Shown piece by piece: positions 1,454 through 19,595 of a stretch of 44,763 bases of DNA (position 1 is the first letter of the stretch; each line of letters begins with the position of its first letter). The stretch is from a virus (taxonomy: Duplodnaviria > Heunggongvirae > Uroviricota > Caudoviricetes). A program made the position numbers and the translations under genes. The stretch covers positions 1 to 44,763 of the IMG/VR virus record IMGVR_UViG_3300030310_000017. One strand, written 5' to 3'. Below the pieces are notes generated by a model that searched no databases, was not told the origin of the DNA, and saw only the letters and a list, made by a program, of their open reading frames with translations.

Positions 1454-1636
1454 TTATTTCTGATTAGGCGTAATCAGTTCTGGTGGGGGGAATGCCGATT
1501 TCTCCCGCGTGACCTTAATGTTTTCTGGCAGGTGTAGCCCGAGTTCGCAGCGACTCCGTGCTTCAATAATGCCATTGGTACCATCGGCAAGTACCAGGTG
1601 AACCGCGTCACCACGCTTTAATGTGAGTTTAAGCAT
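1454..1636 (-). CDS. Hypothetical small early protein
   Basis: 60-aa ORF whose start overlaps the stop of the upstream 189-aa gene, an operon-like arrangement. Confidence 0.35.
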   Translation of the reverse strand: MLKLTLKRGDAVHLVLADGTNGIIEARSRCELGLHLPENIKVTREKSAFPPPELITPNQK

Positions 1637-2205
1637 TAGCGTACCCTCAGCGAACGTTCGCCGCGTTCCAGATGTGCGCCTGGTACCGGGTTTAATAACT
1701 CGGCTGGTGGTGTTTCTCCACGCGCCAGTATTTCGGCGGCAACCGCCTCCGCAGATTCAATCACTTCTTTAATGGCTCGCTTGTTTGGTGTAATAACCGT
1801 TTCTACATCAACAAGTGACACGCCTTCATACTCATCCGGGATCTTATCTTTGCTATCGATAATTACCCGGATAGCCCCCTGTGCATCAGTAAATGTGTTT
1901 TTTGCGGTTTTTAGTTTATCCAGGCCAGCAGCTTGCAGGCAGGCGAGCATATGCTTCCGAATTGCTTTTTCCTTGCCTTCAAAGGACGTCTTACGGGTAG
2001 CCAGGCGAGACATTTCTTCAGCGCAGGTACTGGCATTGCCCTGTAAATTACGGCAGATGACCATCATGGCGTCCAGTTTGTCTCCCAGTTCTCCTTCCAT
2101 ACCTTCAAGCGTGTCGGCGATCATCTCTGGCGTCAGTTCGTCGGAGGTTTCTAACAGGTCAATCAGACTGGCATATTCTTTTGCAATAGCGATAGCAGTG
2201 CTCAT
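1636..2205 (-). CDS. Hypothetical early-operon protein, possibly Gp157-like
   Basis: 189-aa acidic ORF directly downstream of, and overlapping (ATGA), the large recombination-like gene. The family label is a recollection, not verified. Confidence 0.4.
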   Translation of the reverse strand: MSTAIAIAKEYASLIDLLETSDELTPEMIADTLEGMEGELGDKLDAMMVICRNLQGNASTCAEEMSRLATRKTSFEGKEKAIRKHMLACLQAAGLDKLKTAKNTFTDAQGAIRVIIDSKDKIPDEYEGVSLVDVETVITPNKRAIKEVIESAEAVAAEILARGETPPAELLNPVPGAHLERGERSLRVR

Positions 2206-4415
2206 GCTGTTTGCTCCTGTGCTGCGGTGAGGGCGGTGAGGCGTTCGGTTTTGATTTCATTCAAACGGCGCAGGCGCGAACCAAGATAAGTTGAATACTC
2301 CTTATCACCTTTGGATTCTGCGGCCTTGCGGTGAACTTCTACTTCCCGCGCAATAAGGCCATAGACTTTATTAACTTCATTGGGGGTTACGGCTGCAGCC
2401 AGTGTTTTGGCAACACCTGAGAGTCGTTCATCCAGTTCTTCACGCAGTCGGGTAGCATCCTCTGCTTTCTCGCTTGCCTTCTTAATACTGTATTCTGTAT
2501 TCAGCTCGGCGGTGTAGGCACTATCGTTATGCATATCCATATAAACATCTGCCGCAAATCCCAGATGAGATAGTGCTTTGACGGTGGCATCAGTAAGAGA
2601 CTTTTTGGAGGCCTCTTTTTCCATTACCAGTGCCCCTTTGTTATTTTTTGATATGTAATCCGTGTGGCCATATGACGGAATAAATCCTTTCACTCCGTTC
2701 CAGATGTACCAGAGATCTATCCGGATGGTGTGTACTGACAGGCAGAACAGGGAACCGTCAGCATCCCTGACAGGTTTTTGTCCAATAATTTTCCCTGTCT
2801 GATCCTGTATAGGTTCAAGTAATGGCACACCGCGATCCACTCGCTCCTCCTTGATTTCAACTCCCCAACCAATGCCTTCCATTCCCAGCACTTCAGTCGC
2901 ACGCATCAAAATATATTGTGCGCGTATGGAGTGCAGTCCTGCACCGTAATCATTATGTGTGACATACGCAGGATCGGTCCGCTGAACGCGATTCCAGATA
3001 GCCAAATTTGCTTTGCTCTGGTCATCATTCATTGCTGACAGATAATGCTCCATGCGAATTGATGCAGTTTTTTCCTCGGCATGGGGCGGCTCAACCAGCG
3101 CGTCAACGTTCTGCACCAGATCCTTTACCTGCTCGCTAAGTTTTTCTTGTGGAGGAGTCTCTTCTGCCGGGGTAATAGCTGCAGGTTCCCTCTGTGAGAC
3201 GGCGTTATTTTCAGGTACGTCATACACATGGCGAGGCGTGATAAACTGCTCACGCAACTGCTGCAAACTACGTTCTCCAGCATTTGCAGCTTCGCTTTTT
3301 TCACCCTGATTTGAGGGTGTTTCTGACATCATCCCATCAATTGAGAATCGCCCGCCGCCGTGGTTGGTGACTTTTACATCATCCTTTGGTGCTGCTTCCT
3401 TTGACTTCTCTTCAACAGCATTTGCATCACGCTGCCCGTTAGCTTGCAGCCAGTTGTCGATGTGACTGCGCAGGGATTGCGGGAAGTGGTACGTGTCTTT
3501 TGCGGGGGCGCTCTGAATAACACCGAATACTGATGCGCGGTCATAGGCAAGGATCTGATCCGTTGTGCGCAAGGCCATTGACCAGCGTTTAAAATCCTCC
3601 CGATCCTGGCTGATTATTTCGTCTGCCGCTTTCAGGGCGCTGGGGGAGATTTTTTCCGGGCCAACGGGTAACAGAGCGCAGGCAATTTCACGATCCAGTG
3701 TAGCGTGAGTCTGTTTGTAAGGACGTGCGGACGGTTTTACCTCCGGCAGCATTTCATCGCGTTTACCGGGATTCTCTACCCATTTTTTTATAAATTTGGA
3801 GATAGTCCAACTGGTCGGGTTTTGTTCCTGGGTATCGCAACTTGCCAAAATTGCATGTACCAGATTATTCAATCCAGCAATATGCATGTACTCGATGGGC
3901 TTACACGCCACCATGGCATCAAGAACGATGCGGTTAAACGCGTCAACCTCATCCTCACTGTCAGTATCACTGTTGTCGAGCATCTCCAGGTATTCACGCG
4001 TCTGCGCAAGCAATTCACTGTCGACTTCGTTGGCGTCGTGGCTGAACAGCAGAACGGCGGCGAATCGTTCACGAGCCGGCAGTTTCATCAGGTCGTTAAC
4101 CTGTGCGATATCTGCTGAACCGCTATCTACAACGGGGGTGTTAACTACCCATTTTTCGCCATCAAAACTGTGTTCTGTGGCGAACGTCTCATCAAACTCA
4201 CCAACGCCTGGGCGCGGTTGGCCCAGGGCATCTTCCCAGATTTTAGGTTTGAAATAGTTGTCGCCGTGGTCAGGGTAGGCTTCCCACAATTTGCCGATGA
4301 TGATGTTCTCGGCAACTTTTTTGTTAGGGGCGTCGATGGCGATGGCCAGCGCCGGGATCGCGCCGTTTTTGAGCGCGCCTTTTTTCGCTTCTAACAAGCC
4401 GTTAAAAATGGTCAT
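2202..4415 (-). CDS. Large early protein with a putative ERF/Rad52-like single-strand-annealing region near the C-terminus
   Basis: 737-aa ORF in the early leftward operon. The C-terminal segment (KALSHLGFAADVYMDMHND) loosely resembles the conserved core of phage ERF-type annealing proteins; the N-terminal ~450 aa are unassigned. The CDS is solid, the function tentative. Confidence 0.5.
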   Translation of the reverse strand: MTIFNGLLEAKKGALKNGAIPALAIAIDAPNKKVAENIIIGKLWEAYPDHGDNYFKPKIWEDALGQPRPGVGEFDETFATEHSFDGEKWVVNTPVVDSGSADIAQVNDLMKLPARERFAAVLLFSHDANEVDSELLAQTREYLEMLDNSDTDSEDEVDAFNRIVLDAMVACKPIEYMHIAGLNNLVHAILASCDTQEQNPTSWTISKFIKKWVENPGKRDEMLPEVKPSARPYKQTHATLDREIACALLPVGPEKISPSALKAADEIISQDREDFKRWSMALRTTDQILAYDRASVFGVIQSAPAKDTYHFPQSLRSHIDNWLQANGQRDANAVEEKSKEAAPKDDVKVTNHGGGRFSIDGMMSETPSNQGEKSEAANAGERSLQQLREQFITPRHVYDVPENNAVSQREPAAITPAEETPPQEKLSEQVKDLVQNVDALVEPPHAEEKTASIRMEHYLSAMNDDQSKANLAIWNRVQRTDPAYVTHNDYGAGLHSIRAQYILMRATEVLGMEGIGWGVEIKEERVDRGVPLLEPIQDQTGKIIGQKPVRDADGSLFCLSVHTIRIDLWYIWNGVKGFIPSYGHTDYISKNNKGALVMEKEASKKSLTDATVKALSHLGFAADVYMDMHNDSAYTAELNTEYSIKKASEKAEDATRLREELDERLSGVAKTLAAAVTPNEVNKVYGLIAREVEVHRKAAESKGDKEYSTYLGSRLRRLNEIKTERLTALTAAQEQTA

Positions 4416-6214: not shown

Positions 6215-6250
6215 AATATAATTTGTAATTACAGTTATGATTTGTAATGA
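6215..6250. promoter_or_regulatory. Putative right operator / divergent promoter region
   Basis: ATTTGTAAT occurs at 6221-6229 and TTTGTAAT at 6241-6248, between the divergent repressor and Cro-like genes in an AT-rich spacer. Confidence 0.4.
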
Positions 6251-6273
6251 TGGCGCGGACACAAGGAGTCCAT

Positions 6274-6504
6274 ATGGATAAACAACTGCAAGACAAAATT
6301 CTTTCCGTAATGAGTCAATCCGAGTTAGGTCGGCGATTAGGGAAAAAACCACAAACTGTGAGCCTCTGGTTCAAAGGACGGGTTCCCGGTGAAGAGGTTT
6401 TGCGCACATCTGAAGCTCTTGAATGGCGCGTGACCCCTCATGATCTTAGACCGGATCTTTACCCAAACCCAGATGACAGCTTGCCTAAAACGGAAGCAGC
6501 TTAA
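6274..6504 (+). CDS. Cro/YdaS-like HTH regulator
   Basis: An AAGGAG ribosome-binding site lies 6 nt upstream of the ATG at 6274 (the ORF track starts at 6247). The protein has an HTH and an RHDLRPDLYP motif typical of YdaS-type Cro proteins. Confidence 0.7.
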   Translation: MDKQLQDKILSVMSQSELGRRLGKKPQTVSLWFKGRVPGEEVLRTSEALEWRVTPHDLRPDLYPNPDDSLPKTEAA

Positions 6505-6562
6505 CTGTTGGTGAGCCCCAAATCTGATTAAGCGTAATCAATTTTTAGCGACAGGAGACGCT

Positions 6563-7039
6563 ATGGAAAACCCAGAGGAATTACAAAAAGAGATTTTGAC
6601 CTGGGCGGCAAGGGCAGGGCAGGAACTCGTCACGATTGAAATCTGCCGGGCCTGGTTCAGTCAGGGACGCAATGATGAGTTGAGACTACATGAATTTGAG
6701 GACGCGGACGGCAATGTGGACTGGAGAGCCATCAACAACAATCGGCAGAAAATCTTTCGCTGGTTACGTGGCGAGACAACGGCGGCGCGCCGAAAAACTC
6801 AGGTGCTGGCCAGTGTGATGAAAGCCGTGCTACCCGCAGAACGGCGGGCGCGTCTGGAGTCGCCGGGCGATCCCGTTTTGCTGGCAACGCTGGCGGCAAA
6901 AGAAGGGGTGGAAGCGATTAACGCTGTACATCTCCACTTCGCGCCAGAGATAACTATTCAGGAAATTGACGAAGCAATAGCGGCGCTGGTAGCGACGCGA
7001 GGGGCAGTGATAAGCACTGCGCAAGGCCACCATGCATGA
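6563..7039 (+). CDS. YdaT-like / cII-analogue regulatory protein
   Basis: 158-aa ORF directly after the Cro-like gene, as in Rac-type immunity regions. Assignment is by position and size. Confidence 0.45.
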   Translation: MENPEELQKEILTWAARAGQELVTIEICRAWFSQGRNDELRLHEFEDADGNVDWRAINNNRQKIFRWLRGETTAARRKTQVLASVMKAVLPAERRARLESPGDPVLLATLAAKEGVEAINAVHLHFAPEITIQEIDEAIAALVATRGAVISTAQGHHA

Positions 7040-7078
7040 GCGCCTGACCAGCGTTTAACTTATACCGAGGAAAGACCG

Positions 7079-7303
7079 ATGTTAAGACATATTGACCGCA
7101 TTACCTGGCGTAACGGCTGGCACCTGAATGGGCGCCCGGCACATGTTGCAGAGATCCAACCTATTTTTGATGGGCGTATGGCTGCCGCGCTTTCGGTGTG
7201 GGAGCAGTATGAATCCAGGAAGGTCGAGTTGCGCGACAAAGGGCTGAGCAATGCGGACTATGAAGCCGGTTGTCGTCAGATAGCCGAAGCTCTGGAGATC
7301 TGA
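7079..7303 (+). CDS. Hypothetical protein
   Basis: 74-aa ORF preceded by the conserved GAGGAAAGACCGATG initiation motif. Confidence 0.5.
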   Translation: MLRHIDRITWRNGWHLNGRPAHVAEIQPIFDGRMAAALSVWEQYESRKVELRDKGLSNADYEAGCRQIAEALEI

Positions 7304-7305
7304 GT

Positions 7306-8370
7306 ATGAGTCGTTTGCTGATTAACGAAAACCCCCTTCAGGTCCTGCCCACGTTGGCATGCACTATAGGGTTGAATGAAGCCATCGTTCTACAGCAAAT
7401 CCACTACTGGCTGAATTCATCTCAAAATTTCTTCGAAAATCGCCACTGGGTGTACAACAGTGTGACCGATTGGCAAGAACAATTCCCGTTCTGGAGCGAG
7501 TCGACAATAAAACGCGTGCTGGCCAATCTGGAAAAATTGAATGTGGTATTTACTGGGAACTTTAACAGTGATGCCTGGGATAAAACCAAGTGGTATTCAA
7601 TCAATTATGCCCAGTTATGTAAGATTGAAGAGACAACATTCCCTGTGGCCAATCGATTAGGTCAAGTTGACCCAATCGAAGAGGTCAATGTGACCCAAGC
7701 ATCAGGTCAAGTTGACCCATGCGCTAAGGTCAAAATGACCCAATCTCTTACAGAGAATACAACAGAGAGTACTACAGAGATAAAAGATCCCCCTTACCCC
7801 CAAAAGGGGGAGGGCGAGGAAATCATTCTCGCTGACGCTCAAAAAGCTCTGAACTACTACAACGAGAAAGTCGGTACACGCTGCCGCGACGTTAAACCGT
7901 TTGTCATGCTGCTGACTGCCACCACCACCCGCGCTGGTTACAGCGTGGCTGAGATTCAGTTAGTAATTCGTTGGGTTATTGCGACATGGCGCCGTCGTAG
8001 CGGAAGCGTGCCGAAACCTGCGAACATTTGCCGCGTAAACCGGTTTGACGGATATCTGGCTGACGCTGAGGCGTGGGCCACTGCTGAGGCTGCCGTTGAC
8101 CCTGCTGAAGTTGTGAAGGGCTACAACGAGATTCTGGGCGACCTGCTACCTATAGCTGAAATTGATACTGACCGCCGTCGGGCAATCCTGCGCCTGCTGG
8201 CACATATGCGCACGCAAACTCTTGGCGCATTTATCGGCTACTTCGAAAAATTCCGCGATAACGCCCCAGACTTCTATTTCGGCGGCGAATATCGCACCGG
8301 CTGGCGGGCAGGGTTTGATTACCTGATGAAGCCAGAAACACTGCGTAAAACCAGGGAAGGGGCATTATGA
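7306..8370 (+). CDS. Replication initiation protein (lambda O / P22 gp18 analogue)
   Basis: An ATG at 7306 with a GGAG ribosome-binding site (the ORF track starts at a TTG at 7270). It contains four internal iterons and is followed, with overlap, by the DnaB-type helicase gene. Confidence 0.6.
   Translation: MSRLLINENPLQVLPTLACTIGLNEAIVLQQIHYWLNSSQNFFENRHWVYNSVTDWQEQFPFWSESTIKRVLANLEKLNVVFTGNFNSDAWDKTKWYSINYAQLCKIEETTFPVANRLGQVDPIEEVNVTQASGQVDPCAKVKMTQSLTENTTESTTEIKDPPYPQKGEGEEIILADAQKALNYYNEKVGTRCRDVKPFVMLLTATTTRAGYSVAEIQLVIRWVIATWRRRSGSVPKPANICRVNRFDGYLADAEAWATAEAAVDPAEVVKGYNEILGDLLPIAEIDTDRRRAILRLLAHMRTQTLGAFIGYFEKFRDNAPDFYFGGEYRTGWRAGFDYLMKPETLRKTREGAL
7660..7742. repeat. Replication-origin iterons: four copies of GGTCAA-NN-TGACCCA at ~22-bp spacing
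   Basis: GGTCAAGTTGACCCA at 7660-7674, GGTCAATGTGACCCA at 7683-7697, GGTCAAGTTGACCCA at 7705-7719 and GGTCAAAATGACCCA at 7728-7742. Each is internally palindromic and they lie inside the O-like gene, as lambda ori does. Confidence 0.6.
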
Positions 8371-9758
8371 ATCCAGAAGAACTGGAAGCGATCGTTCTCG
8401 CTGGTCTGATTAACGGTGGTGCGACGCCTGACGCGTTTGATGTGATTGCCACTACTCCGGAGGAAGCCTTCAGCATCGTGTTTCACCGTCGCGCTTTCAG
8501 CGAAATCAAAAAGCAGGCACTGGCGAACGGCATGATCGACATGTTGTTTATCAGCGAAGCGCTGGGCGGTTCCAGCCTTGCGGATCTGTCTCAAATATCC
8601 CGGATCCCGGCAACGGTACCGAATCTGAAAGGCTATGCCGGGAAAATGGTGCGGGCATGGCGGAGCCGCAAAATGGCGGCATTGTTGCAATCTGGCGCGG
8701 ATGGTATCCGTAACGCTGTAAACCAGAGTCAGCGTGATGAGGTTATTGAATCTCATGTTGCTCAGGTGCTGGATATGAGCGCCGCTACCGGCACAGTCCA
8801 GCCGGTACACATCAAAGAGCTGTTACCGCTCTACATTGACACCGTTGATAAACGGATGTCTGGTGACGCGCAGGAAATGATGCTGAAAACCGGAGTCGAG
8901 GATCTGGATGTCGCCCTGGGCGGTATCAACATGACCGACCTTGTTGTGGTTGCCGGTCGTCCAGGCATGGGGAAAACGGAATTTACCCTGAAGATTATCG
9001 ATGGCGTTACCGCAGATGGCGGCGGCGCACTGTTTTTCAGCATGGAAATGGGCGCTCAGCAGATTGTTGAACGTACCGTTGCCGGGGCTGGGAATATGTC
9101 CACGTCGCGTCTGCGTAATCCAAAAGAAATGGACGATGAGGATTTGACCAGATTAACCGCCGCGCTTGCAATCATGCAGGATCGCGATATCTGGATTGTT
9201 GATGCCACTGATTTGACGATTGAGCAGATCCGCGCCATTGCAGAGACTCATAAACGCCGTTATCCGCACCTGAAGTTGATTGGTGTTGATTACATGGGCC
9301 TGATCAAAAAACCGAAGGCCGAGCGCCACGATCTCGCTGTCGGGCATATCTCCCGCAACATGAAGACTATGGCCATGCGTCTGCATACCCCTGTTTTTGC
9401 TCTTAGCCAGCTTTCCCGCCAGGTGGATTCTCGACCTGCTGGCCAGCGTCGCCCGGTGATGTCGGACCTGCGCGATTCCGGCAGTGTTGAGCAGGACGCT
9501 GACAGCATTTTGTTTTTGTACCGCGATGAAGTTTACACACCTGATTCACCTGCAAAGGGTATCGCCGAGGTGATTATCGGTAAAAACCGTTCTGGCGGGG
9601 CAGGTGAAATTATTTATCAGGAATTCCGGAATGGGCATTTCCTGCCAATTGATCAACACGTAGCACGCGAAAAATTACGCATCCAGAAGGAGGCAGAGCA
9701 ACCGAGAAAACGTGAAAAACGGTATTCAAACAAAAACTTTAATACGGACCCATTTTAA
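8367..9758 (+). CDS. Replicative DNA helicase, DnaB family
   Basis: 463-aa ORF with a Walker A motif (GRPGMGKT), a Walker B-like IGVDYMGL, and DnaB-like SQLSR and RDEVY segments. Start overlaps the stop of the O-like gene. Confidence 0.9.
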   Translation: MNPEELEAIVLAGLINGGATPDAFDVIATTPEEAFSIVFHRRAFSEIKKQALANGMIDMLFISEALGGSSLADLSQISRIPATVPNLKGYAGKMVRAWRSRKMAALLQSGADGIRNAVNQSQRDEVIESHVAQVLDMSAATGTVQPVHIKELLPLYIDTVDKRMSGDAQEMMLKTGVEDLDVALGGINMTDLVVVAGRPGMGKTEFTLKIIDGVTADGGGALFFSMEMGAQQIVERTVAGAGNMSTSRLRNPKEMDDEDLTRLTAALAIMQDRDIWIVDATDLTIEQIRAIAETHKRRYPHLKLIGVDYMGLIKKPKAERHDLAVGHISRNMKTMAMRLHTPVFALSQLSRQVDSRPAGQRRPVMSDLRDSGSVEQDADSILFLYRDEVYTPDSPAKGIAEVIIGKNRSGGAGEIIYQEFRNGHFLPIDQHVAREKLRIQKEAEQPRKREKRYSNKNFNTDPF

Positions 9759-12621: not shown

Positions 12622-13545
12622 TTATTGGTTTCTGAGGAAAGCGATTCTTGAAAGGGTCATTTGCGTCTGGCAGTCGACCATTTTCTTGACTTCAGCATCT
12701 GTTCCCTGCATTGAAACTTTACCGCACATAGCATCCTTAGTTTTGATCCACTGACGCTGAGAAGGCAGCAACTCTTTTTTCTTCGCCGGCGTTAACCTGC
12801 CCCAGACTGTATTCAAATCAGAGTCAGCATTCGCAAATGCCATTCGGGACTGATCAAGGCTTTCAGCTTTTTGCGGCTGAAGTTGTGCCTGCCTCTCTAT
12901 TTGCTTCTCCGCCTCATACCTGGCCTGTTCCTGTGCCCTGAGTTGCACCTGTTGTTCCGCTTCAATTTGACTCTGTTGGGCATCCTTAGCCTGCTGGATT
13001 TTCTGCTGCTCAACGATCGGGTTGATAATGGAAAGCGATGTCAGTAAAGCGGCGCCCACTGATATCGGATTATCAGAAGAGGTTTTTACAAAAACGTTTT
13101 TCTGATCGTCGGTCGCCTGCACGGTGTAGGTGATACGTTTTGAAAAGGCGTTTGCGTTGTTCTCCAAAAACAGATTTTCCATTTGCTTATCGAGATTACG
13201 ATTAAAATTCTTTCTGTAAGCATCAGAAAGCTGGACGTACTCGTTCGCAGGTAGAGTCATCGTCACGGTCCCTTCACAAGTTTTCATTGTGCTGCCCGTG
13301 TCACTTGATATTGTGGAGATTTCAGAGACGGCTAGTTTGATCTTGTCCAGTGTGCTTCGTTTGGTCTGATTAGTGACATCAGGGTATTTATCGACCTGTT
13401 CAGAGAGTCCTTCATAAGCAAATTTTTTTAATAAATCCATGAGAGCTGATTGGGTCATTTCCGAAGAACAACCGATCTCATCTTTTTTGTTATCACAGCC
13501 TGTAAGGGCAATGGCGAGTAAGAGTACTGAGTATTTTAATCTCAT
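12622..13545 (-). CDS. Lipoprotein with a C-terminal DUF1311/LprI-like (lysozyme-inhibitor-like) region and a Gln-rich coiled-coil middle
   Basis: The signal peptide ends in a lipobox (LLAIALTGC). The C-terminus (WIKTKDAMCGK...MVDCQTQMTLSRIAFL) resembles the DUF1311 pattern. The gene is AT-rich, reverse-oriented and sits inside the repeat-bracketed island. Confidence 0.6.
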   Translation of the reverse strand: MRLKYSVLLLAIALTGCDNKKDEIGCSSEMTQSALMDLLKKFAYEGLSEQVDKYPDVTNQTKRSTLDKIKLAVSEISTISSDTGSTMKTCEGTVTMTLPANEYVQLSDAYRKNFNRNLDKQMENLFLENNANAFSKRITYTVQATDDQKNVFVKTSSDNPISVGAALLTSLSIINPIVEQQKIQQAKDAQQSQIEAEQQVQLRAQEQARYEAEKQIERQAQLQPQKAESLDQSRMAFANADSDLNTVWGRLTPAKKKELLPSQRQWIKTKDAMCGKVSMQGTDAEVKKMVDCQTQMTLSRIAFLRNQ

Positions 13546-14301
13546 GAATTCCCTTTAGAGTAAGGATTGGTTTTTAAGACGCGGTCTGTAATCAGTTCCG
13601 AAAGCTACAGTAAACAACGCTGAGCACTGAACGCATCACAGGCAAGGTAAAAGGTGATATCGGCAAAGGCTGTGAAACCTTTAATTCAACAGATGGGAAC
13701 GGTATGCACAGGATCCTGTAACGACGCTCCCAAAACCGGAAACCTGCAGGGCATGTTTTCGCTGCTGAACTTAATATACGAACCTGCACTATCATGAACA
13801 TATTTTATATCGTTATACCCCGAGTGATTGTGCCCGGCAATGGATAGTGTCCTGGAGGAATTATTTCTAATGTAAAAGGAAGATATTTAATTTCGATGTG
13901 GGATTATTACCTGTCTATAAGAACAATGACTTTATCTGGCAGTAAGCAGACATCTATTAGCTTACTGAAGGGGGGCTGTGATTTGACCATTAACGGCATG
14001 AGATATATTGTCTATTGGTGATTGTTCTGAGGCCGATATCACGTTAACGACCAAGTAAAATAACATGAAAAATTATTTATTAATGATTGCCAGCATTAAA
14101 TGTAGTGATACCTCATTAGCAGGGTGCTCCGCAATGACTGCGATGAACTAAAAAATCAGTCATAACCATGAAAAAAACAAGTGTATCAGCGAAATTAAAT
14201 CTGGTGAAAGCATTTAATTACTTGTTAATGACGCAATAAAAACATACTATGGAAATGTAACAGCTAATCTACAGTTCTTGTCAATAGGGGCGCACAAGAA
14301 A

Positions 14302-14892
14302 ATGTTAAATGAATTTAAGGAAAAGCTACTATCCGACGATATCCGCGATGTCTACCAACGATACCTTTTAGGACATGACATCTGGTATTTTCGGGAACAA
14401 AAAAAATCAATAACCTTTGCTAAAGATTATGATGAGTTTAAGCTATATATGTCTAAGAAGCTTGAAATTCATGTAAATAATATTGCAATTGTTGGAAGTG
14501 CTAAGATGGGATTCAGCTTGAGCCCTGATAAAAATTATCGAACATTTAACGATGAGTCAGATATAGACTTGGTTTTAGTATCCGACAGAATTTATAAATC
14601 TTCCTGGATGGCATTTATTGAATTACAATCAAAGAATTATTTGCCTGTATATGCTCCTGTAGCTAAAAATATTTTCAAAGGATTCGTGTCATTGAAGGAG
14701 TTAGATATTAGAGTCGATTTTTTTAATAAATGGTCCCGTAACGTTGAACCATTAAAAAAAGACATTCAAACTATTTTTGGAATACCTAACGACATCAACT
14801 ACAGAATTTATGACTCTTGGGAGTCCGTTGAACGCTATCACATAGCTGGGTTGAATAGTCTAAAAGATAAGTTACAAGGACAATTGATATGA
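14302..14892 (+). CDS. Minimal nucleotidyltransferase-fold protein (Pol-beta superfamily; MNT/SMODS-like)
   Basis: Contains a GS...D-x-D signature (IVGSAKMGFSL...DESDIDLVLV). Very AT-rich coding. The stop overlaps the start of the downstream DUF262 gene (ATGA). The track's TTG start at 14278 is an alternative to the ATG at 14302. Confidence 0.55.
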   Translation: MLNEFKEKLLSDDIRDVYQRYLLGHDIWYFREQKKSITFAKDYDEFKLYMSKKLEIHVNNIAIVGSAKMGFSLSPDKNYRTFNDESDIDLVLVSDRIYKSSWMAFIELQSKNYLPVYAPVAKNIFKGFVSLKELDIRVDFFNKWSRNVEPLKKDIQTIFGIPNDINYRIYDSWESVERYHIAGLNSLKDKLQGQLI

Positions 14893-15947
14893 GAGCTATT
14901 GATCTAATTAAAGTTGAATCGAAAGACATTAAATGGTTGACGGATAATTTGAAATCAGGTGTTATTACAGTTGATAATTCATATCAGAGAAAATATATCT
15001 GGCAGCAAAAAGACCAAGTGGCCTTAATTGAGACAATATTAATTGGCTACCCAATCCCTGAGATTTACCTTTGGGCAAATAATACTGATCCTGACACTGG
15101 AGATACTAAATATTCAATTGTAGATGGACAGCAAAGGCTAACCACAATCCAGCGATATTTAAATGATGAGTTTAAGTTAAGCAAAGCAGCTATAGATGAT
15201 AAAGAAGCCGACTATAGTGGGAAAATTTTTTCAGAATTGTCGGCAGATAACAAACGTGATTTTTGGCGATACCAATTCTCATCCAGATTTATTAATGAAT
15301 CATTGAGATATGATGAGATTGCAAAGTTATTTTTACGTCTAAATAGAACAAATACTACGTTAAATCCTCAAGAACTTCGTAATGCTGAATTTAATGGCGA
15401 GTTTTTAAGATTAGCCGAAGAAATTGCACAAAATGAATTTTGGGATAATTATAAGATATTTACTCAGTCAGATATCCGTCGGATGCAAGACATTCAATTC
15501 ATCAGCACATTATTGATTTTCTTACGAATGGGTATTGAGCAGGATAATACACAAAAATCAATTAATCGAGTGTATGATCAATACAATGAGAATTACCCTG
15601 AGGCGACTGAGGACAGAATTGTCTTTAACGAAGTGTTAAGGATCATATCTCAAATTATCAACAATAAACAAGTATTAGAATCAGTTGTAAAGAAAAAAGG
15701 CCATTTGTATTTTATATTTGTGCTGGCATACTATTATTTACAGCTTAGTAAATCTAAGCTTGTTGATATGAATGTTATTAGTTCAAAGCTCGAGGATTTT
15801 TTTAATATTTATGAGTTAAATGAACAAGATAACCCCCATCCACTGGTTGAGGAATATAGATTCCTCAGCCAAGAGGGTTCAAAGAAGAGTCATAACAGAC
15901 AGCGTAGATTTGATATTTTGAAAGAATTTTGCTCTTTACATGATTAA
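14889..15947 (+). CDS. DUF262 (ParB/GmrSD N-terminal-like) domain protein without a recognisable DUF1524/HNH nuclease domain
   Basis: Carries the hallmark motifs QRKYIWQ...LIETILIGYPIPEIYLW...YSIVDGQQRLTT. At 352 aa it ends in a helical extension rather than a nuclease domain. An AAGGA ribosome-binding site is upstream. Confidence 0.75.
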   Translation: MRAIDLIKVESKDIKWLTDNLKSGVITVDNSYQRKYIWQQKDQVALIETILIGYPIPEIYLWANNTDPDTGDTKYSIVDGQQRLTTIQRYLNDEFKLSKAAIDDKEADYSGKIFSELSADNKRDFWRYQFSSRFINESLRYDEIAKLFLRLNRTNTTLNPQELRNAEFNGEFLRLAEEIAQNEFWDNYKIFTQSDIRRMQDIQFISTLLIFLRMGIEQDNTQKSINRVYDQYNENYPEATEDRIVFNEVLRIISQIINNKQVLESVVKKKGHLYFIFVLAYYYLQLSKSKLVDMNVISSKLEDFFNIYELNEQDNPHPLVEEYRFLSQEGSKKSHNRQRRFDILKEFCSLHD

Positions 15948-16201
15948 ATGACGAAAGTGGGTTGTTTATAAGAATTGAATAAACAACCCATCATTTTAAT
16001 GTACTCTGAATCCTCTCATTCTTAGTGAAATATTGTTTTTAGAACACGTATTGACGTTAGAACAAAAAATAGATTTTTTTGTGATGTATTACGTTGGAGT
16101 TGATGGGATAATTATATGTTTTCAATACATTGTTAATTTATCAAGACCCTGCGACTAAGGTGTTCGAAAATCGACTAAAGTCTGTTTCATAGAGAGAGTT
16201 A

Positions 16202-16292
16202 CTTGCGTTTAAAAAGGTATTTGGTCACGACCAACACGAGGCCGAATACCTCAGTTTAAGTACCGCTCATGTACAACAGTAACGTTTGCTGA
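16202..16292. repeat. Direct repeat copy B
   Basis: TTGCGTTTAAAAAGGTATTTGGTCACGACCAACACGAGGCCGAATACC...GTACCGCTCATGTACAACAGTAACGT aligns with 12476-12565. Confidence 0.65.
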
Positions 16293-16468
16293 TAGTGTCG
16301 CATTATCTTGCAGAGGACGCAGGTTAAATAGAACAAGCATATGTACCTGGTTTTTGTAATATTGGGTATAACATATGCTTTATAGGAGCGCGCTCAATGA
16401 CCAACCGAGAAAGAATCTCCTGACAGATACAGTTATTTTCACCCTCTCCATAACATAAGGGAGTTTTT

Positions 16469-17017
16469 ATGTCGGAAGTGAGTATCGTAGAAGACGACCC
16501 ACGCCCAGTAGTCGCCGAATTGGCAGATCTGTTACAAGCACAACCATTTCATCAGAATCAATATGATAACTTATGTCGCTTTATGATTTATTTTTCCCTG
16601 GCTGAATCAAAGTTAACATCAATGGCTGCTGGCCTTGGTAGAACTGACGCACTGGCACAGGAACTGGTTGTGCATAACGGCATGGACAGTCAGACCATAG
16701 ATGATTGCTATCGTTATTTTATACGACGCTATCGAGACAGCCCTGATAGCGATTACCGCTTCAATAAACTGGCCCCGCCTGAGTATGTTAAGAATGCAAT
16801 CAGAGAACGCTTTGTTACGCTACTTCAGATACAGTCTCCAACAATTGAAGATAAAATCAGCTTTGTGTTCAAAGTGATTTTTAGGTTACGGCATAATCTT
16901 TTCCATGGAGAAAAATGGTCTTACAACCTCGAAGACCAGGAAGCTAATTTTTCACATGCCAGCAATGTACTACTATCCTGTTTGACTCTTACTCGCGGGA
17001 GTATGTGGCACCCTTGA
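16469..17017 (+). CDS. Hypothetical protein with a HEPN-like R-x4-6-H motif near the C-terminus
   Basis: 182-aa ORF with an AAGGGAG ribosome-binding site. The C-terminal segment FRLRHNLFHGEKW contains R-x4-H and R-x6-H spacings typical of HEPN RNase active sites. The assignment is tentative. Confidence 0.4.
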   Translation: MSEVSIVEDDPRPVVAELADLLQAQPFHQNQYDNLCRFMIYFSLAESKLTSMAAGLGRTDALAQELVVHNGMDSQTIDDCYRYFIRRYRDSPDSDYRFNKLAPPEYVKNAIRERFVTLLQIQSPTIEDKISFVFKVIFRLRHNLFHGEKWSYNLEDQEANFSHASNVLLSCLTLTRGSMWHP

Positions 17018-17570: not shown

Positions 17571-17587
17571 TTTTACTTTAATTGATT

Positions 17588-17614
17588 AAAGCGCCTTTTT
17601 CTGGCGCTTTTTTA
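17588..17614 (+). terminator. Intrinsic terminator
   Basis: Stem AGCGCC / GGCGCT with a 7-nt loop, followed by a run of six T. Confidence 0.55.
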
Positions 17615-17629
17615 TTGCGGAAAAACCAA

Positions 17630-18310
17630 ATGGAAAAGCTCTGGGTTTTTACTCAATTAGTTACAGGGAAAGATGACACATCTGGCTTTTTGGCTTACGC
17701 GCTCTATAAGCACGACAAAAATGAATATGCAGAGAAGTTGCGTAGTAGTGGCGAATATACAGAAGAAGATATTAACGCCCAACTGAAGATCTTTCATGAG
17801 CAGACAGTTAACTCGCCAGGCCGAATTGAGTCTTACAAAGAAAAAGCAGAAGCCATCGTCACAAACTTAACAGACCAGATAGATGCTGATATCCGGCTTG
17901 AGTACGATGCACAGTTAGCCGGTGCTAACTTGCAGGATGTTGAAATAGAACGGCTGAAAGCAGAAATACAGGCTATGAAAGCATCACGTGAGAGCGAGCT
18001 AAGGAAGGCTGGAGAGGATGCTATTCTCAATTTTCATCGCATGGTTGAAATCACCCAGGCACGCAAACGTGGGCGTGTTTCCCGCTCGTTAGGATGGTAC
18101 TGGAATGGGTTTGCCAGCATTTTCGCCACAATAACCTTCGCTGTCATTGTCTATGGTATTTGTACTTGGGCATTGCCACAAAAATCCAGAGACGACATTG
18201 TGGATGGAGCGTTTAAAAATCTGCAGGGATCGTTATTCCAACAGCCAAACATTCAATTTAATAAAGACAAAAACGAGAACGCTCAGCAACCTAACACAAG
18301 TGCCGAATAG
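17630..18310 (+). CDS. Membrane-anchored hypothetical protein (one predicted transmembrane helix, coiled-coil N-terminal region)
   Basis: An ATG at 17630 after the terminator (the ORF track start at 17582 would read through the terminator). A hydrophobic stretch GFASIFATITFAVIVYGICTWAL is present. Confidence 0.5.
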   Translation: MEKLWVFTQLVTGKDDTSGFLAYALYKHDKNEYAEKLRSSGEYTEEDINAQLKIFHEQTVNSPGRIESYKEKAEAIVTNLTDQIDADIRLEYDAQLAGANLQDVEIERLKAEIQAMKASRESELRKAGEDAILNFHRMVEITQARKRGRVSRSLGWYWNGFASIFATITFAVIVYGICTWALPQKSRDDIVDGAFKNLQGSLFQQPNIQFNKDKNENAQQPNTSAE

Positions 18311-18721: not shown

Positions 18722-18962
18722 AGTGATTCCTCATGATATAAAGACCCAACAATATAAATTACCAGGCACATCATAAGATAGGGGCCCAGCCCATATTTTC
18801 AAATATTTGCAAGTATCACCGTTCAGTCTAAAGACTTGGATGGTTGTTTCACGAGTCATAACAAAACCCTGACTCGGCGGGTTTTCTTTTTATAGAACTC
18901 TGCGATGCGACAACGAATAATAAATTGTGCAAATAGTGCTGTTTTTATTATTCGAGGTGGAT

Positions 18963-19595
18963 ATGAGATCATTCTATGAGGACTGGCCTGAAACGTTTGT
19001 CACCCGACTTGACATGCTGCGGGCGCTGGATAACCGGGGGGCAACCCGGAGACTCTACACAAAACGTACAGGGGCGATTTACAACGCGCTGGCAGACGAG
19101 GTTCGTGAGGCTGTGACTGGATTCAATACCAGTGAACTCGACTTAGGACCACTCTACCGGTATTACAAACGTGGAGGAGAGAGCGACGCGCTGGCAGACA
19201 CACTGATCGCACTGGCGCCGACTGTGTGCAGGCGCGTAATGATTTCCCCTGACGTATATACAATACCGTACCTGTTTTTTGCGCTGTTGATAGCGCGAGG
19301 AGAGGACGACGATGCACGTGATTTTTTCAATATGATGATGCGGCCACTAATCGTGGCGTACCGGTTCAAACAACTGGCGCGTTATCTGGGAACAAAGGGC
19401 GGAGGGAGGCCACAGCACAGGCTAAAAGACGAGGCATTACAGATTGCAGAGGTTTTTTTCACAAATAATCCCCACGCACGGGTTAGTGCGGCGGTGGCAC
19501 GTATTAACGAAATTCTCGTAAAAAAATATGCTGACGTTCCGGCGGAGTCAACTATTAGAAAATGGTTAACCCATGTTTATGGAAATGAAAAATAA
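18963..19595 (+). CDS. Hypothetical protein
   Basis: An ATG at 18963 preceded by GAGGTGG (the ORF track starts at 18927); about 210 aa. Confidence 0.5.
   Translation: MRSFYEDWPETFVTRLDMLRALDNRGATRRLYTKRTGAIYNALADEVREAVTGFNTSELDLGPLYRYYKRGGESDALADTLIALAPTVCRRVMISPDVYTIPYLFFALLIARGEDDDARDFFNMMMRPLIVAYRFKQLARYLGTKGGGRPQHRLKDEALQIAEVFFTNNPHARVSAAVARINEILVKKYADVPAESTIRKWLTHVYGNEK

What the first reader, a model, noticed from the sequence alone, without database searches (positions are those of the whole stretch)
14302..15947. Candidate two-gene defence-like operon: minimal nucleotidyltransferase plus DUF262/ParB-like protein
Two translationally coupled genes (stop and start share ATGA at 14889-14892) sit in an AT-rich island that contrasts sharply with the surrounding phage backbone. 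Gene 1 carries a Pol-beta-type nucleotidyltransferase signature (GS...DESDIDLVLV) in a ~200-aa minimal protein, the MNT/SMODS size class. Gene 2 carries the DUF262 motifs of GmrSD-type enzymes (DGQQRLTT) but lacks the DUF1524/HNH nuclease half. To my knowledge this pairing does not correspond to a characterised anti-phage system. Its position between the antirepressor and late genes of a prophage is where defence or exclusion cargo is commonly carried.
Basis: partly seen in the sequence, partly recalled or inferred. Interest (0 to 1): 0.85.

Follow-up and report, generated by a model that had tools for sequence, protein, structure and literature searches.

The report
NTase-like plus DUF262 defence gene pair
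An E. coli prophage carries a tightly coupled pair of genes, a very divergent nucleotidyltransferase-like protein and a nuclease-less DUF262 DNA-sensor protein, that stay together across many bacterial phyla and phages, often beside DNA methyltransferases, and look like an undescribed variant of DNA-modification-linked anti-phage systems.

Summary
G1 (14302-14892, 196 aa) and G2 (14889-15947, 352 aa) overlap by ATGA and lie in a 31-35% GC island inside a variable cargo slot of a lambdoid E. coli prophage.

The pair is a real unit:
- G2 lies directly downstream of G1 in about 68 of 80 genomic loci and 11 of 11 viral loci.
- The reciprocal test gave 8 of 8.
- Divergence of the two proteins is correlated (Spearman 0.90).

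About 45% of the loci have an adjacent DNA methyltransferase, of C5 or N4/N6 type, in separate clades. The E. coli clade has none.

The pair fails membership of Menshen, PD-T4-2, GmrSD and CBASS, and I found no published description. Most likely it is a new variant of DUF262-based, modification-linked defence. Function is inferred, not shown.

The parts
14302..14892 (+). G1: 196-aa divergent minimal Pol-beta/MNT-like nucleotidyltransferase-like protein (unannotated family)
14494..14499 (+). G1 codons for G65-S66 (the hG[GS] motif of Pol-beta NTases)
   Evidence: G65 is conserved in 100% and S66 in 98% of 237 family members. Both are invariant in the complete paired loci.
14557..14568 (+). G1 codons for S86-D87-I88-D89 (putative metal-binding DxD)
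   Evidence: S86, D87 and D89 are 100% conserved in 237 members.
14876..14880 (+). AAGGA Shine-Dalgarno for G2, inside the 3' end of G1
   Evidence: Read directly from the sequence. It lies 8 nt upstream of the ATG at 14889.
14889..14892 (+). ATGA overlap of the G2 start and the G1 stop (translational coupling)
   Evidence: Sequence. Spacing is operonic in 62 of 65 related loci.
14889..15947 (+). G2: 352-aa ParB-DUF262 NTPase-type sensor domain plus helical C-terminal (ParBDB-like) domain, with no nuclease domain
14985..15002 (+). G2 DUF262 motif I (Q33-R34...W38)
   Evidence: Invariant in 66 paired loci. The motif is defined in PMC12065111.
15123..15137 (+). G2 DUF262 motif II, DGQQR (residues 79-83), the predicted NTP-binding centre
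   Evidence: D79, G80, Q82 and R83 are invariant in all 66 paired loci; Q81 is Q in 65 of 66. A3 alignment.
15330..15344 (+). G2 DUF262 motif III (F148...N152)
   Evidence: Invariant in 66 paired loci.
13800..16400 (.). AT-rich cargo island (GC 0.31-0.36) that holds the pair, within a variable prophage slot
   Evidence: Composition profile. Related prophages carry other cargo in the same slot. Only 3 of 5,426 complete E. coli genomes carry the pair.

Best explanation
G1 and G2 form an autonomous, horizontally mobile two-gene anti-phage module of the DUF262 (GmrSD/SspE/NsnA) kind. The usual nuclease, HEPN or ATPase-toxin partner is replaced here by a divergent minimal nucleotidyltransferase-like protein.

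Proposed mechanism:
1. G2 uses its ParB-DUF262 NTP-binding domain and helical DNA-binding domain to bind DNA and read a feature that separates invader from self. That feature is most likely base-modification status. It does so in an NTP-dependent way, as BrxU and SspE do.
2. G2 forms a complex with G1.
3. G1's conserved GS / S-D-x-D site then carries out a nucleotidyl-transfer reaction that stops phage propagation. The reaction could be on a nucleic-acid end, on a protein, or could produce a nucleotide product.

In several clades a dedicated DNA methyltransferase in the same operon supplies the self mark. The E. coli prophage copy works without a dedicated methyltransferase and serves the prophage as superinfection-exclusion cargo.

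Shown: gene structure, domain identities, conservation of both active-site motif sets, strict co-occurrence and co-divergence, and the association with methyltransferase, R-M and mobile-element contexts.

Inferred: the defence function, the physical complex, which protein is the sensor and which the effector, and the chemistry performed by G1.
For: Pair integrity.
- G2 lies directly downstream on the same strand in about 68 of 80 genome loci spanning Gammaproteobacteria, Bacteroidota, Bacillota, Actinomycetota, Planctomycetota, Acidobacteriota, Cyanobacteria and a Methanoregula archaeon.
- The same holds in 11 of 11 viral contigs.
- Reciprocally, all 8 viral G2 relatives that match full length have G1 upstream. 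None of the 30 distant DUF262-only hits does.
- Divergence of G1 and G2 is correlated (Spearman 0.90, n=65), and the median spacing is 23 nt.

Both proteins look active.
- G1's G65, S86, D87 and D89 are 100% conserved in 237 sequences.
- G2's QR..W and F..N motifs are invariant in all 66 paired loci, and DGQQR is invariant apart from one Q81L.

Link to DNA modification.
- A C5 methylase (PF00145) lies directly upstream in the same orientation in 23 loci.
- An N6_N4 methylase is adjacent in 5-6 loci.
- These fall in separate deep clades.
- Vsr, NaeI, EcoRII, EcoO109I and type I R-M genes are neighbours.

Mobile cargo. The prophage slot holds different cargo in other strains, namely an ImmA/IrrE pair and a SMEK-domain protein.

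Precedent. DUF262 acts as an NTP-dependent modification sensor in GmrSD, BrxU and SspE (PMC12065111, PMC10952713).
Against: - No experiment shows defence, toxicity, complex formation or any enzymatic activity.
- No universally conserved third carboxylate exists (best candidate E174, 73% D/E). G1 could therefore be a nucleotide-binding or regulatory subunit rather than a transferase.
- The E. coli clade has no adjacent methyltransferase, so the link to modification is extrapolated from other clades.
- In one clade the pair sits beside a complete NaeI R-M system. Some of the methyltransferase association may therefore be defence-island clustering rather than functional coupling.
- The pair is rare in E. 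coli (3 of 5,426 genomes).
Confidence: 0.5

Rival explanations
1. G1 and G2 together are a two-subunit restriction endonuclease, the R component of R-M systems. The ParB-like domain, or G1 acting as a novel nuclease, cleaves DNA. Cognate methylation protects the host. Copies without a methyltransferase, such as the E. coli one, are modification-dependent (type IV-like) or rely on host methylases.
For: In the Bacillota-type clade, MTase-G1-G2(-Vsr) units contain no other nuclease candidate. Two unrelated methyltransferase classes are linked to the pair in separate clades. G2 weakly hits PADLOC's REase_II model (5.3e-10). ParB/DUF262 domains have been regarded as DNases in comparative-genomics work (PMC3710099, PMC3632139).
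Against: No recognisable nuclease fold was found in either protein. In characterised GmrSD-family enzymes DUF262 is the NTPase/sensor and a separate His-Me domain does the cutting. G1's conserved site is of the NTase type, not the nuclease type. More than half of the loci lack any adjacent methyltransferase, which would be lethal for a classical restriction enzyme.
Confidence: 0.2
2. The pair is a type VII-like toxin-antitoxin or abortive-infection module. The MNT-like G1 is encoded first and nucleotidylates G2 to keep it inactive, as MntA does with HepT. Phage infection relieves the inhibition.
For: G1's closest structural matches are MNT antitoxins, including the MNT of a HEPN-MNT complex (8xeh_E). 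The gene order is antitoxin-first with translational coupling. The pair is small, solitary and carried on mobile elements. DUF262 pairs with HEPN in PD-T4-2, and HEPN pairs with MNT in known TA systems.
Against: G2 has no HEPN Rx4-6H motif, and no recurrent HEPN or toxin family hit appears in 50 members. G2 has no known toxic activity on its own. The recurrent, operonic methyltransferase linkage is not expected for a plain TA module.
Confidence: 0.12
3. The pair has a function other than defence, for example a phage or mobile-element ParB-like DNA-handling function (partition, packaging or genome modification) with an accessory nucleotidyltransferase.
For: G2's fold also matches ParB, KorB and PadC. 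The pair occurs on phage contigs and has PHROG families of unknown function.
Against: The pair sits in a variable cargo slot rather than in a conserved phage module. It is often chromosomal, next to R-M genes and methyltransferases. Its closest sequence relatives are defence proteins (NsnA, PD-T4-2_A). It is absent from 50,697 deposited phage genomes at the DNA level.
Confidence: 0.1
4. The locus is a degenerate remnant of a known system (Menshen or PD-T4-2) that has lost its other components.
For: G2 gives a full-length hit to PADLOC NsnA (4.6e-41) and a hit to PD-T4-2_A (1.9e-19).
Against: No NsnB, NsnC or HEPN partner lies nearby. The G1-G2 arrangement, with intact motifs, is conserved across phyla. 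The G1 partnership is specific to this G2 subfamily.
Confidence: 0.03

Closest known systems
GmrSD-family type IV restriction enzymes (GmrSD, BrxU, SspE; two-protein TgvAB and GrwAB)
   Different: Neither protein has a DUF1524 His-Me nuclease domain. The obligate partner is an NTase-like protein instead.
Menshen (NsnA-NsnB-NsnC)
   Same: G2 matches the NsnA model nearly end to end (E 4.6e-41, model positions 48-379 of 385). It therefore shares the ParB-DUF262 plus ParBDB architecture described in PMC12065111.
   Different: There is no NsnB ABC ATPase and no NsnC inPIN-toxin gene. The conserved partner lies upstream and is a 196-aa NTase-like protein.
PD-T4-2 (DUF262 protein plus RiboL-PSP HEPN protein; validated in E. 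coli ECOR65)
   Same: It is a two-gene E. coli system built on a nuclease-less DUF262 protein. G2 hits PD-T4-2_A at 1.9e-19.
   Different: The partner is not a HEPN protein. G1 has an alpha/beta fold with GS and DxD motifs and gives no PADLOC hit. The nearby ORF3 does not hit PD-T4-2_B either and travels independently of the pair.
HEPN-MNT (HepT/MntA) type VII toxin-antitoxin systems
   Same: G1's best structural matches are MNT proteins (HI0073, 1wot, the MNT of 8xeh). The NTase gene comes first in a small coupled operon.
DUF499-centred BREX-related R-M-like systems (PMC12839542)
   Same: Distant, longer G1-like proteins (about 260 aa) sit between a DUF1156 N6-methyltransferase and a DUF499 ATPase in L072 and L075. 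This is another modification-based defence context.
   Different: Those loci have no DUF262 protein. The G1-like proteins there do not match DUF3780, the standalone component described for type-2 systems.

Membership tests
Pol-beta nucleotidyltransferase superfamily / MNT (PF01909 NTP_transf_2) | hG[GS] motif followed by a [DE]h[DE]h metal-binding motif on the next strand | tested here: met
   VGS at residues 64-66 and SDIDLV at 86-91. G65, S86, D87 and D89 are 100% conserved in 237 sequences. The predicted strands 61-64 and 88-93 fit beta1 and beta2.
Pol-beta nucleotidyltransferase superfamily / MNT (PF01909 NTP_transf_2) | Third conserved catalytic carboxylate on a neighbouring strand | tested here: not met
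   Only D87 and D89 are universally acidic. The best other position is E174, with 73% D/E.
Pol-beta nucleotidyltransferase superfamily / MNT (PF01909 NTP_transf_2) | Significant match to the family profile (Pfam gathering score) | tested here: not met
   The query itself gives no hit. 25 of 52 relatives hit PF01909 only below threshold (best E 7.8e-4), and 5 of 52 hit PF18765.
Pol-beta nucleotidyltransferase superfamily / MNT (PF01909 NTP_transf_2) | Structural similarity to solved NTase folds | tested here: inconclusive
   [not shown]
CBASS CD-NTase / SMODS | Match to CD-NTase/SMODS profiles and an adjacent effector that senses a nucleotide signal | tested here: not met
   [not shown]
GmrSD family (type IV restriction) | N-terminal DUF262 domain with QR, DGQQR and FxxxN motifs | tested here: met
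   [not shown]
GmrSD family (type IV restriction) | DUF1524 His-Me finger nuclease domain, fused or as a separate GmrD protein | tested here: not met
   No DUF1524/HNH hit in G1, G2 or ORF3. G2 is only 352 aa, and its C-terminal half is all-helical.
Menshen | NsnA-like ParB-DUF262 plus ParBDB protein | tested here: met
   PADLOC NsnA 4.6e-41 over model positions 48-379 of 385.
Menshen | Adjacent NsnB ABC/OLD-type ATPase and NsnC effector | tested here: not met
   Downstream there is only ORF3 (182 aa, no PADLOC or Pfam hit). No ATPase is annotated nearby. No such neighbour cluster appears in the 80 loci.
PD-T4-2 | DUF262 protein paired with a RiboL-PSP-type HEPN protein (PF18735) | tested here: not met
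   G2 hits PD-T4-2_A (1.9e-19). Neither G1 nor ORF3 hits PD-T4-2_B or any HEPN family. ORF3 occurs without the pair in 5 of 8 genomes.
Classical restriction-modification system | Cognate DNA methyltransferase encoded next to the restriction genes | tested here: not met
   No methyltransferase is annotated within about 20 kb on either side in the near-identical record for strain ETEC1738. In relatives, 23 loci have a C5 methyltransferase directly upstream and 5-6 have an N4/N6 methyltransferase adjacent, out of 65.
Classical restriction-modification system | Demonstrated endonuclease activity blocked by cognate methylation | not testable with these tools
   This needs biochemistry.
HEPN-MNT type VII toxin-antitoxin | HEPN toxin partner with an Rx4-6H motif | tested here: not met
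   G2 shows no HEPN family hit in 50 members, even at E up to 1. None of the positions conserved in the G2 alignment forms an Rx4-6H motif.

The most novel reading that the evidence does not exclude
G1 and G2 form a nuclease-free 'restriction' enzyme: a DNA-sensing nucleotidyltransferase. G2's ParB-DUF262 domain reads DNA modification status. In many lineages the self mark is set by a dedicated C5 or N4/N6 methyltransferase in the same operon. G2's helical C-terminal domain acts in trans as the missing substrate-binding lobe of the minimal NTase G1, as HI0074 does for HI0073. The assembled enzyme then nucleotidylates invader DNA ends, tRNA or a protein, or makes a nucleotide product, and so blocks phage replication. 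That would be a new effector chemistry for modification-based immunity.
Probability: 0.15. Interest if true: 0.85.

Novelty: new variant of a known kind. Interest (0 to 1): 0.62.

Why it matters
DUF262 proteins are the sensor halves of several anti-phage systems: GmrSD/BrxU, SspE, Menshen, Dazbog and PD-T4-2. In every characterised case the killing part is a nuclease, a HEPN RNase or an ATPase-toxin pair.

Here a whole subfamily of nuclease-less DUF262 proteins is locked to an unannotated family of NTase-like proteins. That family has about 1,500 representative clusters and no Pfam, NCBIfam or PADLOC model. The pair occurs across bacteria, phages and at least one archaeon, and repeatedly sits in operons with DNA methyltransferases.

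If it is a defence system, three things follow:
- It adds a new effector or regulatory chemistry to modification-linked immunity.
- It gives a function to a sizeable family of 'hypothetical proteins'.
- It supplies a compact two-gene system in E. coli that can be tested directly.

It would also allow current defence-annotation tools, which see only a lone 'NsnA-like' gene, to call these loci correctly.

Tried and rejected
- Menshen. G2 hits NsnA strongly, but no NsnB or NsnC is present here or in related loci. Rejected.
- PD-T4-2 with ORF3 as the HEPN partner. ORF3 contains an 'RHNLFH' string, but it has no HEPN or PADLOC hit. It is never found with the pair outside E. coli, and it occurs without the pair in 5 of 8 E. 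coli genomes. Rejected.
- G1 as DUF3780, the standalone component of DUF499 systems. No Pfam hit in 52 members or in the distant G1-like proteins. Rejected.
- G1 as SMODS/CD-NTase. No support.
- A universal third gene. Neighbour clustering and Pfam scans of 149 flanking ORFs found none.
- 'The methyltransferase always implies that G1-G2 is the restriction enzyme.' Weakened: in the alphaproteobacterial clade the methyltransferase belongs to a complete NaeI system, and in several Bacillota loci extra methyltransferases belong to EcoRII or EcoO109I systems.
- Sequence and profile searches of G1 against PDB, and Foldseek against PDB, gave nothing significant.
- The AFDB Foldseek library was unavailable.
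- Promoter and terminator scans were uninformative.
- DNA searches of the phage and plasmid collections found no match.
Full report
**1. Observation**

The window is an E. coli lambdoid prophage integrated beside the glyW-cysT-leuZ tRNA genes. It is 99.8% identical over 13500-16500 to strain ETEC1738.

Two same-strand ORFs are present:
- G1: 14302-14892, 196 aa. The ATG start is the one used by PGAP and agrees with the family alignment.
- G2: 14889-15947, 352 aa.

G1's stop and G2's start overlap as ATGA at 14889-14892. An AAGGA Shine-Dalgarno sequence lies 8 nt upstream of G2's ATG. GC content is 0.31-0.35 across the pair and 0.42-0.54 in the flanks. The quoted motifs are present.

- Upstream: the replication genes, an ORF6N/antirepressor-like ORF and an LprI lipoprotein gene.
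- Downstream: DUF1367, DUF1364, Q, holin and endolysin genes.

**2. The slot is variable cargo**

568 complete E. coli genomes share the flanks, but only 3 of 5,426 carry the pair. In ST131 strain ZH063 the same slot holds a 232-aa hypothetical gene and an ImmA/IrrE-containing pair. In strain EC28 it holds a SMEK-domain protein and a 450-aa hypothetical.

The 182-aa ORF3 downstream (16469-17017) occurs in 8 genomes, 5 of which lack the pair. It is never near the pair in other taxa. It is therefore separate cargo.

**3. G2**

- Pfam reports only GmrSD_N (1e-24, residues 22-168).
- PADLOC gives NsnA at 4.6e-41 over nearly the whole model. Weaker hits are PD-T4-2_A at 1.9e-19, REase_II at 5.3e-10 and SspE.
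- The DUF262 motifs QR..W, DGQQR and F..N are conserved in all 66 paired loci, with a single Q81L exception.

G2 is thus the 'sensor half' (ParB-DUF262 plus helical ParBDB-like domain, as defined in PMC12065111) without an effector domain.

**4. G1**

G1 gives no hit in Pfam, NCBIfam, PADLOC or PDB sequences. Its only hit is a PHROG of unknown function.

It belongs to a family of standalone proteins of about 200 aa:
- 121 clusters in the word-indexed search.
- 1,546 representatives at E up to 1e-3 in the exhaustive search, 861 of them at E up to 1e-10.

In 237 full-length members, G65, S86, D87 and D89 are 100% conserved. S66, K68, G70, S72, P75, W102, R168, Y170 and Y179 are at least 91% conserved. 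No third acidic position is universal; the best is E174 at 73% D/E.

The AF2 model is very confident (pLDDT 94.8). The structural evidence for an NTase fold is weak but points one way:
- Foldseek on PDB finds nothing significant. Its best, non-significant hits are again NTases (TUT4 and CutA).
- When each of 52 members is scanned, 25 give sub-threshold hits to PF01909 NTP_transf_2 (best 7.8e-4) and 5 to PF18765 Polbeta. No other family recurs.

I therefore call G1 a highly divergent Pol-beta/MNT-like protein with an intact GS/DxD site. It is not a demonstrable member of any curated NTase family.

**5. The pair is a unit**

A scan of one genome per species returned 80 loci.
- In about 68 of them a G2 homologue lies directly downstream on the same strand. 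65 of these were confirmed by ORF maps.
- The taxa include Gammaproteobacteria, Bacteroidota, Bacillota, Alpha- and Betaproteobacteria, Actinomycetota, Planctomycetota, Acidobacteriota, Cyanobacteria and a Methanoregula.
- The exceptions are loci cut by contig ends, one degenerate locus, one non-adjacent locus, and eight distant, longer G1-like proteins.

Normalised scores of G1 and G2 are correlated across loci (Spearman 0.90). The median distance from G1's stop to G2's first aligned codon is 23 nt.

All 11 viral contigs with a G1 relative have G2 next to it. Starting from G2 instead, 8 of 8 viral loci with a full-length G2 match have G1 upstream. None of the 30 loci that match only the DUF262 domain does. 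The partnership is specific to this G2 subfamily, including its C-terminal domain.

No third gene is universal.

**6. Link to DNA modification**

Neighbour clustering and Pfam scans gave the following:
- A C5 cytosine methylase (PF00145) lies directly upstream in the same orientation in 23 loci, often with Vsr.
- An N6_N4 methylase is adjacent in 5-6 further loci.
- Type I R-M-like genes flank the pair in a few loci.

On a G1+G2 tree these associations fall in separate deep clades:
- a Bacillota-type C5 clade;
- a Bacteroidota C5 pair with longer G2 proteins and fused large methyltransferases;
- an N4/N6 clade.

In the Bacillota-type clade, the additional EcoRII or EcoO109I restriction enzymes pair with second methyltransferases. 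That leaves MTase-G1-G2(-Vsr) as a unit with no other nuclease.

In an alphaproteobacterial clade the pair follows a complete MTase-NaeI-Vsr system. Part of the association may therefore be defence-island clustering.

The clade containing the E. coli pair (Gammaproteobacteria and Bacteroidota) has no adjacent methyltransferase.

Distant G1-like proteins lie between a DUF1156 N6-methyltransferase and a DUF499 ATPase. These are the BREX-related R-M-like systems of PMC12839542.

**7. Mechanism (inference)**

By analogy with BrxU, GmrSD and SspE, DUF262 is an NTP-dependent sensor of DNA modification that controls an effector (PMC12065111, PMC10952713, PMC12137116, PMC11411939).

The best-supported reading is that G2 senses invader DNA and works in complex with G1. 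G1's conserved nucleotide/metal site provides the effector or switch activity.

The rivals are:
- a two-subunit restriction enzyme;
- an MntA/HepT-like TA arrangement in which G1 nucleotidylates G2;
- a non-defence ParB-like function;
- a remnant of Menshen or PD-T4-2, which the conservation data effectively exclude.

**8. Comparison with known systems, and novelty**

The pair fails defining features of every system I considered:
- GmrSD: no DUF1524 domain.
- Menshen: no NsnB or NsnC.
- PD-T4-2: no HEPN partner.
- CBASS: no CD-NTase/SMODS match.
- HEPN-MNT: no HEPN protein.

Full-text searches found no paper describing a DUF262 protein partnered with an NTase-like protein. Operons of ParB/DUF262 with HEPN and a methylase were noted in 2013 (PMC3710099).

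I classify the pair as a new variant of a known kind, DUF262-based modification-linked defence. It has an uncharacterised and sizeable partner family. Defence activity itself remains to be shown.

Noticed in passing
window 16469-17017 (+): ORF3 encodes 182 aa and contains 'RLRHNLFHGEK', a possible HEPN-like Rx4H string. It has no Pfam, PADLOC or NCBIfam hit, only phrog_27260 (1.2e-9, unknown function). It occurs in 8 E. coli genomes, 5 without the G1-G2 pair, so it is independent cargo of unknown function.
   Followed up: partly
window 12622-13545 (-): A 307-aa lipoprotein with a C-terminal LprI (lysozyme inhibitor) domain (5.4e-8) and a Q/E-rich coiled region. It is a prophage moron conserved at the edge of the variable slot in hundreds of E. 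coli genomes.
   Followed up: partly
L082 (ZH063) 6234-8498; L084 (EC28) 1555-4340: The same prophage slot carries other candidate defence cargo in other strains. ZH063 has a 232-aa hypothetical, plus a 201-aa hypothetical with an ImmA/IrrE metallopeptidase. EC28 has a SMEK-domain protein plus a 450-aa hypothetical.
   Followed up: no
L001 18016-19229; L083 7771-8999: IS3-family insertions flank or split the cargo region in the other E. coli strains that carry the pair. In ETEC1738 the insertion lies upstream of the pair. In HCP5S3_I2 it lies between G2 and ORF3.
   Followed up: no
L072 5938-6720; L075 5920-6717: Distant, longer G1-like proteins (about 260 aa, with the same VGSAKLGFS...SDVDV core) sit between a DUF1156 N6-methyltransferase and a DUF499 ATPase, in the BREX-related R-M-like systems. 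They do not match DUF3780. The NTase-like module may be a recurrent accessory of modification-based defence.
   Followed up: partly
L050 6603-8117; L053 6591-8084: In two Bacteroidota loci G2 is about 500 aa, with an unannotated extension of about 150 aa at the C-terminus ('...RGDxRIWFSGL...'). The upstream C5 methyltransferase is enlarged to 543-737 aa. The extension may be an added DNA-recognition domain.
   Followed up: no
[not shown]
   Followed up: partly
window 17582-18310 and 18927-19595 (+): Two further ORFs between the cargo island and the DUF1367/Q module have no Pfam hit when translated from 17630 (226 aa) and 18927 (222 aa); the mechanical ORF beginning at 17582 is 242 aa. They are conserved as 'hypothetical protein' in related prophages.
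   Followed up: partly
L003 6508-6591: In a deltaproteobacterial MAG, G1 lies within a type I R-M-like locus, but only a 28-residue C-terminal fragment of G2 follows it. This looks like a decayed copy of the pair.
   Followed up: no
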